Origin: Pecten maximus
Taxonomy: Eukaryota
Direction of reading: 5' to 3'
NCBI RefSeq assembly: GCF_902652985.1
Contig: NC_047026.1
Span: 39,370,001 to 39,434,000, forward strand
Length of the DNA: 64,000 nucleotides
The notes beneath the pieces were generated by a model. It had not been told where the DNA came from and did not search any database. It saw nothing but the letters and a program-made list of their open reading frames with translations. The translations under genes were made by a program, and so were the position numbers. Numbering within the stretch: the first letter of the stretch is position 1; the number at the start of each line of letters is the position of its first letter. This document shows positions 47,301 through 50,300 of this stretch, piece by piece.

Positions 47301-50300
47301 AAGACACTTGTGTTTACTCTGCCAATTATCATGTTTTCTCTGGAGCAGGAGAAACGCTTACCCTTCATCAAAGGAGAGGGGCCCTATGGTCTCATCATAT
47401 GTCCCTCAGTAAGTATATATAATTATAGGGAAGGAACCCAATGGTCTCATCATATGTCCCTCAGTAAGTTTATACATGTATAATTATAGGGGAGCAACCC
47501 TATGGTCTCATCATATGTCCCTCAGTAAGTATATATAATTATAGGGGAGGGACCCTATGGTCTCATCATATGTCCCTCAGTAAGTATATATAATTATAGG
47601 GGAGGGACCCTATGGTCTCATCATATGTCCCTCAGTAAGTATATATAATTATAAGGGAGGGACCCTATGGTCTCATCATATGTCCCTCAGTAAGTATATA
47701 TAATTATAGGGGAGGGGCCCTATGGTCTCATCATATGTCCCTCAGTAAGTATATATAATTATAGGGGAGGGGCCCTATGGTCTCATCATATGTCCCTCGG
47801 TAAGTATATATAATTATAGGATAGGGACCCTGTGGTCTCATTATATGTCCCTCAGTAAGTATATATAATTATAGGGGAGGGACCCTATGATCTCATCATA
47901 TGTCCCTCAGTAAGTATATATAATTATAGGGGAGGGGCCCTATGGTCTCATCATATGTCCCTCAGTAAGTATATATAATTATAGGGGAGGGGCCCTATGG
48001 TCTCATCATATGTCCCTCAGTAAGTATATATAATTATAGGGGAGGGGCGCTATTGTCTCATCATATGTCCCTCAGTAAGTATATATAATTATAGGGGAGG
48101 GGCCCTATGGTCTCATTATATGTCCCTCAGTAAGTATATATAATTATAGGGAGAGGGACCCTATGGTCTCATCATATGTCCCTCAGTAAGTATATATAAT
48201 TATAGGGGAGGGGCCCTATGGTCTCATCATATGTCCCTCAGTAAGTATATATAATTATAGGGGAGGGACCCTATGGTCTCATCATATGTCCCTCAGTAAG
48301 TATATATAATTATAGGGGAGGGACGCTATGGTCTCATCATATGTCCCTCAGTAAGTATATATAATTATAGGGGAGGGACCCTATGGTCTCATCATATGTC
48401 CCTCAGTAAGTATATATAATTATAGGGGAGGGGCCCTATGGTCTCATCATATGTCCCTCAGTAAGTATATATAATTATAGGGGAGGGGCCCTATGGTCTC
48501 ATCATATGTCCCTCAGTAAGTATATATAATTATAGGGGAGGGGCCCTATGGTCTCATATGTCCCTCAGTAAGTATATATAATTATAGGGGAGGGACCCTA
48601 TGGTCTCATCATATGTCCCTCAGTAAGTATATATAATTATAGGGGAGGGGTGCTATGGTCTCATCATATGTCCCTCGGTAAGTATATATAATTATAGGGG
48701 AGGGGCCCTATGGTCTCATCATATGTCCCTCAGTAAGTATATATAATTATAGGGGAGGGACCCTATGGTCTCATCATATGTCCCTCAGTAAGTATATATA
48801 ATTATAGGGGAGGGGCCCTATGGTCTCATCATATGTCCCTCAGTAAGTATATATAATTATAGGGGAGGGGCCCTATGGTCTCATCATATGTCCCTCAGTA
48901 AGTATATATAATTATAGGGGAGGGACCCTATGGTCTCATCATATGTCCCTCAGTAAGTATATATAATTATAGGGGAGGGGCCCTATGGTCTCATCATATG
49001 TCCCTCAGTAAGTATATATAATTATAGGGGAGGGGCCTATGGTCTCATCATATGTCCCTCAGTAAGTATATATAATTATAGGGGAGGGGCCCTATGGTCT
49101 CATCATATGTCCCTCAGTAAGTATATATAATTATAGGGGAGGGGCCCTATGGTCTCATCATATGTCCCTCAGTAAGTATATATAATTATAGGGAGGGGAC
49201 CCTATGGTCTCATTATATGTCCCTCAGTAAGTATATATAATTATAGGGGAGGGACCCTATGGTCTCATCATATGTCCCTCAGTAAGTATATATAATTATA
49301 GGGGAGGGACCCTATGGTCTCATTATATGTCCCTCAGTAAGTATATATAATTATAGGGGAGGGGCCCTATGGTCTCATCATATGTCCCTCAGTAAGTATA
49401 TATAATTATAGGGGAGGGGCCCTATGGTCTCATCATATGTCCCTCAGTAAGTATATATCATTATAGAGAGGGACCCTATGGTCTCATTATATGTCCCTCA
49501 GTAAGTATACATAATTATAGGGGAGGGACCCTATGGTCTCATCATATGTCCCTCAGTAAGTATATATAATTATAGGGTAAGGGACCCTATGGTCTCATCA
49601 TATGTCCCTATCGCTTTCCTCTGTCCGTCCTATTTGTACATACATTGTTTGTACATAACAACAAAGTTTATCAGCACTCCATCAGCTTCATTCCTTGAGG
49701 GATTTGGATCAAACTTCAGACACCTGTAAAGGACTATAATAGCTAGTGGGGCTGGTTAGGGACATGTGTTGCCTTAGCAATACTCAGTATACTTATTGTA
49801 TTGTGTTGCTGAACTTTTTATCCATATAGTTTGAGCATCATATATTTCTGTAAAAAAGTAAAAAAACTTAGTGTATAATTAGATATTGATAAAGACATTT
49901 TCAGAGAACAGTGTTATGAAGTGACATAATATAAAACATTAATTATCTGACAACAGTGATTTGATATGATAATAGATATTGGTAAATACTTATAATCAGT
50001 CATTAATGAATACCAAAATGATAATTTATTTACAGAGAGAGCTGGCACGACAAACACATGAGATAATTCAGTACTACAGTCAGTGCCTGGCAGATGAGGG
50101 CTTCCCCCTGCTTAGATGTGGTTTATGTATTGGAGGTGTGTCCGTCAAGGAGCAGCTGGAGGTCATCAAGGCGTGAGTACTACCTATGATAGACTATACA
50201 TTGGTTCAGTTTGATGTAAAACATTTATTAACTCATCTTTATTAGTACATGTATGATTTAAAGCTTAATTTGGCTTAAAATTTAAAAAAAAAAATCAAAA

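What the first reader, a model, noticed from the sequence alone, without database searches (positions are those of the whole stretch)
47373..49609. About 40 copies of the DDX41 exon 7 end, each flanked by AG and GTAAGT
The unit is ~35 nt of coding sequence (the [12 protein letters not shown] segment leading into motif Ia) plus gtaagtatatataattatag, a 20-nt GT-AG spacer. Every copy is thus a pseudo-microexon with a consensus donor in native context. The second donor (47464) shifts the frame and later ones include a stop at 47481, so correct DDX41 requires the first of ~40 near-identical donors. The array could also homogenise the real exon end by gene conversion or bind U1 snRNP.
Basis: partly seen in the sequence, partly recalled or inferred. 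Interest (0 to 1): 0.7.

Follow-up and report, generated by a model that had tools for sequence, protein, structure and literature searches.

The report
Repeated splice donor in scallop DDX41
In a scallop RNA-helicase gene (DDX41), a 55-base piece spanning the end of exon 7 and its splice signal is repeated about 40 times in the next intron, yet the assembled RNA joins at the first signal, so this is likely a harmless example of a repeat type already described in human and lancelet genes, here found at about 4% of the scallop exons sampled.

Summary
The array is real: 47372-49609, a 55-nt unit x40.6, with 40 GTAAGT donors. It begins inside coding exon 7 of a scallop DDX41 and is present in DNA contigs of two samples. 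Spliced contigs from two runs join exon 7 at the first donor; none holds array units (contigs drop rare forms). The 20-nt GT-AG spacer is far below the shortest intron sampled (115 nt), and exon copies in 23 such arrays drift neutrally, so neither microexon use nor gene conversion is supported. It is a 'mirage'/F7-type donor-spanning minisatellite. This scan has noted the kind before, in this genome (CCDC40, UCK, SLC22) and in others. New here: 24 of 543 homology-checked exons have an array across the donor against 6 across the acceptor (p 0.0014; 15 against 6 of 269 in the strictest tier), and a 26-unit daughter of this array lies on another chromosome-scale contig with no DDX41 flanks. Verdict: ordinary new member of a known kind, low interest.

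The parts
35314..54517 (+). DDX41 (abstrakt) DEAD-box helicase gene, 12 coding exons
   Evidence: Last exon 98% identical to Argopecten irradians DDX41; exons mapped by tblastn; open 632-aa frame
47255..47408 (+). Coding exon 7 (154 nt, motif I to [10 protein letters not shown]); its last 33-36 nt are the first unit of the array
   Evidence: matches human DDX41 residues 217-266; covered whole by spliced contigs of X7 and X12
47409..47414 (+). Authentic donor, first of 40; weak (score 4.3, about the 5th percentile of sampled donors)
   Evidence: Loose end behind 47408 is the start of exon 8 in X7 and X12; score
47372..49609 (+). 55-nt minisatellite x40.6 (about 35 nt exon end plus 20 nt intron start); homogeneous centre, divergent units 2-3
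   Evidence: head-to-tail joints in DNA contigs of X1 and X5
47464..47469 (+). Second donor; its use would lengthen the exon by 55 nt and shift the frame
47481..47483 (+). In-frame TAA met if donor 3 or a later one is used
   Evidence: and the sequence
47800..47805 (+). Copy 8 donor with G at -1 (likewise copy 24 at 48678); scores 8.8, above the real donor, but not seen in use
50036..50172 (+). Exon 8; its acceptor is the best-scoring AG of intron 7 (8.5 against 5.8-6.7 for unit AGs)
39463..42837 (+). Second donor-spanning array of DDX41 (intron 3, 51-mer x66, 3-5 exon nt)
51717..52944 (+). Third donor-spanning array of DDX41 (intron 10, 30-mer x40, 12 exon nt)
4668..5089 (+). Donor-spanning array (60-mer x7, 44 exon nt) in a WDR54 gene
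19696..22369 (-). Array starting at the donor GT of intron 3 of an RMND5A-like gene (22-mer x122; gene name recalled, CTLH and RING domains from Pfam)
15960..18357 (-). Array starting at the donor GT of intron 6 of the RMND5A-like gene (40-mer x60)

Best explanation
It is a minisatellite made of the DDX41 exon 7/intron 7 junction that likely arose by a local 55-nt duplication and later expansion, and it is likely neutral because splicing uses the donor next to the real exon and removes the copies with the intron. Shown: the anatomy, its presence in two DNA samples, first-donor joining in spliced contigs, an intron at the same codon in human, neutral drift of exon copies, and a rate of about 4% of exons. 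Inferred: birth at the short AG(G) match shared by the exon and the intron end (so the 'acceptor' AG is likely just the duplication breakpoint), growth by slippage or unequal exchange, first-donor choice by 5'-to-3' scanning or exon definition as shown for human F7, and removal of any leak by nonsense-mediated decay.
For: X7 (1290-nt contig) and X12 (665-nt contig) run through exon 7 to 47408 and go on into exon 8; RNA depth is 0 at 47418-47430, and 0 of the 5 RNA records laid hold array units. Tandem repeats make up 37% of 464 kb around the window and 24% of 1.2 Mb of gene regions elsewhere; 415 of 466 arrays have no distant look-alike in those regions. 24 of 543 homology-checked exons carry a donor-crossing array, and 6 of 22 introns in this window do. 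Variants within arrays are 22% (15 of 68) and 23% (22 of 95) synonymous against 24% possible. Second donors fall in all three frames (9, 15, 8 of 32), and in 30 of 32 arrays a later donor scores equal or better. The human gene has a donor at c.798+1, the same codon 266, so the intron predates the array. The same outcome is reported for F7 and for lancelet mirages.
Against: Contigs drop rare variants and decay would hide frameshifted forms, so low-level use of later donors is not excluded. Only two runs show the junction directly, and the tool lists both as RNA by guess (their contigs are spliced). Donor 2 would give a 209-nt exon, inside the normal range (95th percentile 239 nt), so exon length alone does not explain the choice. 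In human IFI6 (6-16) and CBS the next one or two copies are used. Donor arrays exceed a GC-adjusted neutral expectation (15 observed, 8.0 expected, p 0.018), which pure neutrality does not predict.
Confidence: 0.85

Rival explanations
1. Regulatory dial: the copies divert a regulated share of DDX41 transcripts to frameshifted forms that are degraded, or hold U1 snRNP, so copy number tunes expression of a splicing helicase.
For: Every later donor tested gives a premature stop; 37 later copies score the same as the real donor and 2 score higher; later copies are used in human IFI6 and CBS; contigs cannot show rare forms.
Against: No RNA contig holds units. The same layout occurs in myosin, kinesin, chaperonin and DEAD-box genes, in 23 of 83 regions, so nothing is special to DDX41. 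No constraint on unit sequence or frame.
Confidence: 0.07
2. Concerted evolution: the array repeatedly overwrites the real exon end by gene conversion, coupling the two.
For: The last 33 nt of exon 7 equal the commonest unit; the two commonest variants in this array are synonymous (19 of 38 and 5 of 38 units).
Against: Four other shared variants in this array are non-synonymous. Across 23 arrays, shared variants are neutral and fixed exon-array differences are 12 synonymous to 9 non-synonymous (p 0.001 against 24%; 5 of the 12 come from one array), which means exons keep diverging from their arrays. The units next to the exon are the most divergent (4 and 9 differences).
Confidence: 0.04
3. 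The 35-nt units are real microexons or an intermediate of intron gain.
For: Unit AGs score 5.8, between the 10th and 25th percentile of real acceptors; intron gain from mirages has been proposed.
Against: 35 nt is not a multiple of three; the 20-nt spacer is far below the 115-nt minimum seen; no unit in RNA contigs.
Confidence: 0.03
4. Assembly artefact.
For: No record laid spans the array, so the copy number was not checked.
Against: Head-to-tail 55-nt joints, including the variant second unit, are in DNA contigs of two samples from two studies; 19 distinct unit types among 39 units.
Confidence: 0.01

Closest known systems
Human F7 intron 7 37-bp VNTR, and the IFI6 (6-16), CBS intron 13, LMNB2 and PDGF intron 4 minisatellites (Borensztajn et al. 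2006, PMC1557585; read: abstract, Introduction, Discussion)
   Same: The first unit spans the exon-intron border; the donor is repeated in the intron; the most upstream donor is the one used.
   Different: About 40 copies against 5-9 in F7 (up to 25 in 6-16); 33-35 exon nt per unit against 4; a mollusc; part of a genome-wide habit. Whether the copies work as donors when the first is lost was shown for F7 and not tested here.
Amphioxus 'mirage' minisatellites: Adh3, troponin C, globins BflGb6 and BflGb9, PGBD5 (PMC3087553 and PMC3902484; read: passages on the term; the original Adh3 paper not seen)
   Same: Tandem duplication of an exon-intron border, unit within the 10-160 bp range, normal mRNA, edge units left out of homogenisation, both donor and acceptor types occur.
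   Different: More copies (40 against 3-6 in BflGb6); a daughter array on another contig; length polymorphism and somatic instability not tested here.
Scallop tandem-repeat-rich genomes (Chlamys farreri, PMC5700196; read: passages)
   Same: Tandem repeats are the most abundant repeat class (11.3% there; 24-37% of the gene regions sampled here).
   Different: The passages read say nothing of arrays at splice sites.

Membership tests
Mirage / F7-type splice-junction minisatellite | Head-to-tail array with a unit of about 10-160 bp | tested here: met
   55 nt x40.6
Mirage / F7-type splice-junction minisatellite | One edge unit is the gene's own exon-intron border | tested here: met
   Unit 1 is the exon 7 end plus the first 20 nt of intron 7
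Mirage / F7-type splice-junction minisatellite | Copies keep the splice signal | tested here: met
   39 later GTAAGT donors scoring the same as or above the real one
Mirage / F7-type splice-junction minisatellite | The main mRNA uses the site next to the real exon | tested here: met
   Spliced contigs of X7 and X12; rare forms not visible
Mirage / F7-type splice-junction minisatellite | Concerted evolution inside the array with divergent edge units | tested here: met
   Units 2-3 differ by 4 and 9 from the commonest unit; most others by 0-3
Mirage / F7-type splice-junction minisatellite | Copy number varies between alleles or cells | not testable with these tools
   Short-read contigs give no copy number
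Mirage / F7-type splice-junction minisatellite | The next copy takes over when the first donor is mutated (F7) | not testable with these tools
   Needs a minigene
Tandem microexon array / alternatively spliced cassette cluster | Units separated by introns of spliceable length | tested here: not met
   20 nt against a minimum of 115 nt in 343 introns and 99 nt in 411 array-free introns of the looser set
Tandem microexon array / alternatively spliced cassette cluster | Units appear in mRNA and are under coding constraint | tested here: not met
   None in RNA contigs; neutral variation
Dispersed bivalve satellite DNA family | Many unlinked arrays, often inside mobile elements | tested here: not met
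   Two loci only; the sequence right beside the second array matched nowhere else among 40 of 323 candidates scored
DDX41 orthologue (host gene) | Best matches are DDX41 over the exons tested | tested here: met

The most novel reading that the evidence does not exclude
Scallop genes carry splice-junction minisatellites at about 4% of donors and about 1% of acceptors. The excess at donors (about twice a GC-adjusted neutral rate) reflects a real link between 5' splice sites and repeat birth or survival, and exon-born arrays can seed other chromosomes. The genome would then be a natural library of probably thousands of equal-strength donor ladders for testing first-come 5' splice-site choice outside mammals, with this DDX41 array (weak real donor, two stronger copies downstream) as a clean test case.
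Probability: 0.3. Interest if true: 0.5.

Novelty: new member of a known kind. Interest (0 to 1): 0.2.

Why it matters
As a single locus it matters little: the kind is described in human and lancelet genes and this scan has logged it many times. The measured parts have modest value. They give a rate for these repeats in a mollusc, a donor-over-acceptor skew, evidence that exon copies drift neutrally and do not overwrite exons, and a dispersed repeat whose birthplace is certain because it holds coding sequence. Such arrays can also mislead gene annotation: my own exon finder picked a later donor in 5 of 33 cases.

Tried and rejected
(1) 'Acceptors are never crossed' held in the window (0 of 22 introns) but failed in the wider sample: 6 validated and 5 unvalidated cases. 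(2) A G-rich sense strand (R-loop idea): GC skew of 93 intronic arrays is 0.045 against 0.032 in unique intron, p 0.51; rejected. (3) Arrays as required intron filler: only 2 of 144 array-bearing introns collapse below the shortest array-free intron, though DDX41 intron 10 collapses to 48 nt; not general. (4) Synonymous bias among array variants as a sign of gene conversion: seen in the two commonest variants here, absent across 23 arrays. (5) Stronger donors in spanned exons: 9.5 against 8.8, p 0.12. (6) Export as a rule: the 51-mer and the 30-mer of DDX41 have no exact-pattern match elsewhere, so 1 of 3 arrays tested is exported. (7) The 400 kb beside the window proved gene-poor and was left out of the exon counts. 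(8) Folding of the units gave only weak local hairpins with no shuffle control; not used. (9) RNA depth of zero over the intronic end of unit 1 is only a weak hint. (10) Literature searches listed no paper giving a genome-wide rate of splice-junction minisatellites in a mollusc; the library lacks most subscription papers and no supplements were opened.

Full report
Observation. The window holds a 55-nt array at 47372-49609 (40.6 copies, 95% matches) with 40 GTAAGT sites from 47409 to 49556. Self-identity at lag 50-59 is 0.86 against at most 0.29 in 50 shuffles. The host gene is DDX41: the last exon is 98% identical to the Argopecten irradians protein, so the organism is a scallop. Twelve coding exons give an open 632-aa frame, and the array starts inside exon 7 (47255-47408). 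That exon matches human DDX41 residues 217-266, and a human splice variant c.798+1G>A is reported at that codon (PMC12512057, one passage), so the intron is far older than the array. 38 of 39 full units carry an AG before an exon-like stretch that is 35 nt in 34 of 38. Donor 2 shifts the frame, and donors 3-8 (the ones translated) meet TAA at 47481.

Is it real, and which donor is used? DNA contigs of X1 (54 records laid) and X5 (21 records; another sample and study) show head-to-tail joints that go back 55 nt, both with the variant second unit and X5 also with the third. Copy number cannot be read from them. Spliced contigs of X7 (4 records laid) and X12 (1 record) cover exon 7 to 47408 and continue with the first bases of exon 8. 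From the other side, the 1290-nt X7 contig has exactly 154 nt before exon 8. X8 repeats X7's figures and is not counted as independent; X13, the one run on record as RNA among those laid, has a contig with 333 nt before exon 8 whose letters were not shown. No RNA record holds array units. Contigs drop rare variants, so minor use of later donors remains open.

The 20-nt GT-AG spacer is unlikely to be an intron: the shortest of 343 sampled introns is 115 nt. The unit AG scores 5.8, a weak but possible acceptor, against 8.5 for the real one. The same AG stands at the same place in the real exon, so it is likely the short match at which the first duplication happened (inference). The real donor is weak (4.3, about the 5th percentile) and copies 8 and 24 are stronger (8.8), yet the first is used. 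For gene conversion I scored the exon-derived part of 23 of 36 donor arrays (dropped: one false call, and arrays with under 9 exon nt or under 3 usable units). Single and shared variants were 15 of 68 and 22 of 95 synonymous, against 24% possible. Fixed exon-versus-array differences were 12 synonymous to 9 non-synonymous (p 0.001; 5 of the 12 from one array). The copies therefore drift freely while the exons go on changing at silent sites. This array has no fixed difference from its exon, which fits a young array and cannot exclude conversion at this one locus.

How common is it? In the window, 6 of 22 modelled introns start with such an array (three in DDX41, two in an RMND5A-like gene, one in WDR54) and none has one across the acceptor. 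Tandem repeats cover 37% of 464 kb around the window. I fetched 1.2 Mb around myosin, kinesin, chaperonin and DEAD-box genes chosen from family searches before looking at repeats: 24% tandem repeat, 336 arrays. A self-trained exon finder gave 979 exons, 543 of them supported by a family hit or a paralogue. Of these 543, 24 (4.4%; 95% interval 2.9-6.5%) have an array across the donor and 6 (1.1%) across the acceptor (binomial p 0.0014). With 175 unvalidated exons added the counts are 33 (one of them a false call) and 11 of 718. In the strictest tier (family hits only) they are 15 and 6 of 269 (two-sided p about 0.08, worked by hand). In 343 complete introns the counts are 15 and 4, against 8.0 and 7.1 expected from GC-adjusted neutral seeding (p 0.018 and 0.16). 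Arrays favour GC-richer seeds (39% against 33%), which explains part of the donor excess. Caveats: four gene families only, long introns cut by the 10-kb stretches, and slightly different matching rules for donors and acceptors.

A daughter array. An exact pattern search found the unit at only one other place, C19:22879599-22881031, minus strand: 26 units, no other DDX41 exon within 40 kb, and no match elsewhere for the sequence right beside it among the candidates scored. Of its 19 unit types 16 are private, its units are twice as diverse as those here (4.0 against 2.0 differences), and the longest run of units shared in order is 2. That argues against a misplaced copy of the same stretch. 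The direction is clear because the unit holds DDX41 coding sequence. Its junctions were not checked in reads, and the means of transfer (for example a circle or a templated repair patch) is a guess. It lies about 11.5 kb upstream of an innexin-like coding exon on the same strand (name recalled from the sequence). The other two DDX41 donor arrays have no such copy.

Mechanism. Most likely a genome that often amplifies local 20-90-nt seeds duplicated this junction. Arrays wholly inside exons are removed (0 in 77 kb of validated exon), whereas an array that starts in the exon end and grows into the intron leaves the mRNA intact if the first donor wins. Exon length does not explain the choice of donor 1 over donor 2 (209 nt; 95th percentile 239), so 5'-to-3' scanning as shown for F7, backed by decay of any leak, is the inferred rule.

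What is known. Human F7 intron 7 and four other human genes have donor-spanning minisatellites; only the first donor is used in F7, LMNB2 and PDGF, and the next one or two as well in 6-16 and CBS (PMC1557585: abstract, Introduction, Discussion). Lancelet 'mirages' are the same structure at donors and acceptors, with normal mRNA and divergent edge units (PMC3087553 and PMC3902484, passages). I reached the F7 paper by my own search; the mirage lead came from earlier scan notes, which also record this kind three times in this genome, with eight more in other genomes. All testable defining features are met. The searches listed no genome-wide rate for a mollusc; papers other than the five named were seen as listings only.

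Verdict. Real, ordinary, a new member of a known kind; interest 0.2. The census, the donor skew and the exported copy are the only additions.

Noticed in passing
G000:C19:22879599-22881031 (L005:5599-7031), minus strand: A 26-unit daughter of the DDX41 exon-7 array on another chromosome-scale contig, without DDX41 flanks, with mostly private unit types, about 11.5 kb upstream of an innexin-like exon on the same strand.
   Followed up: partly
window:51729-52974: DDX41 intron 10 would be only 48 nt if its 30-mer array were collapsed to one unit, below any intron sampled, so the array has likely replaced most of the old intron and may now be needed as spacer.
   Followed up: partly
window:4526, 13537, 43376, 52944: Four arrays stop 20-35 nt short of an acceptor, leaving the branch point and pyrimidine region unique.
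   Followed up: partly
G000:C1:55296260, C14:4582901, C19:29027641 and eight more: Acceptor-spanning arrays of 3 to over 80 copies occur too, in kinesin, myosin, chaperonin and DEAD-box gene regions; their use in RNA was not checked.
   Followed up: partly
window:27828-28895: Apparently single-exon fatty acid desaturase gene (Pfam PF00487).
   Followed up: no
window:61768-62790: Start of an SNRNP27 gene with an RS-rich exon (Pfam PF08648).
   Followed up: no
window:50543-50968: A very high-copy dispersed repeat in DDX41 intron 8, with contig depth in the thousands to tens of thousands in RNA-type runs.
   Followed up: no
window:47293 and about 13460-13490: One X5 contig joins DDX41 exon 7 to a stretch of the RMND5A-like gene 34 kb away at a GATC; likely a proximity-ligation or library chimera.
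   Followed up: no
window:47020-47254: X7 holds a low-depth contig (5.2 against 38-65) that retains DDX41 intron 6.
   Followed up: no
L012-L021, L026, L042 and many gene regions: Three dispersed satellite families with 145-, 155- and 158-nt units recur across many contigs, unlike the locus-born minisatellites.
   Followed up: no
window:43985-45937: A 63-mer x31 array in mid-intron 5 carries a strong donor-like motif in its unit but does not touch a known exon.
   Followed up: no
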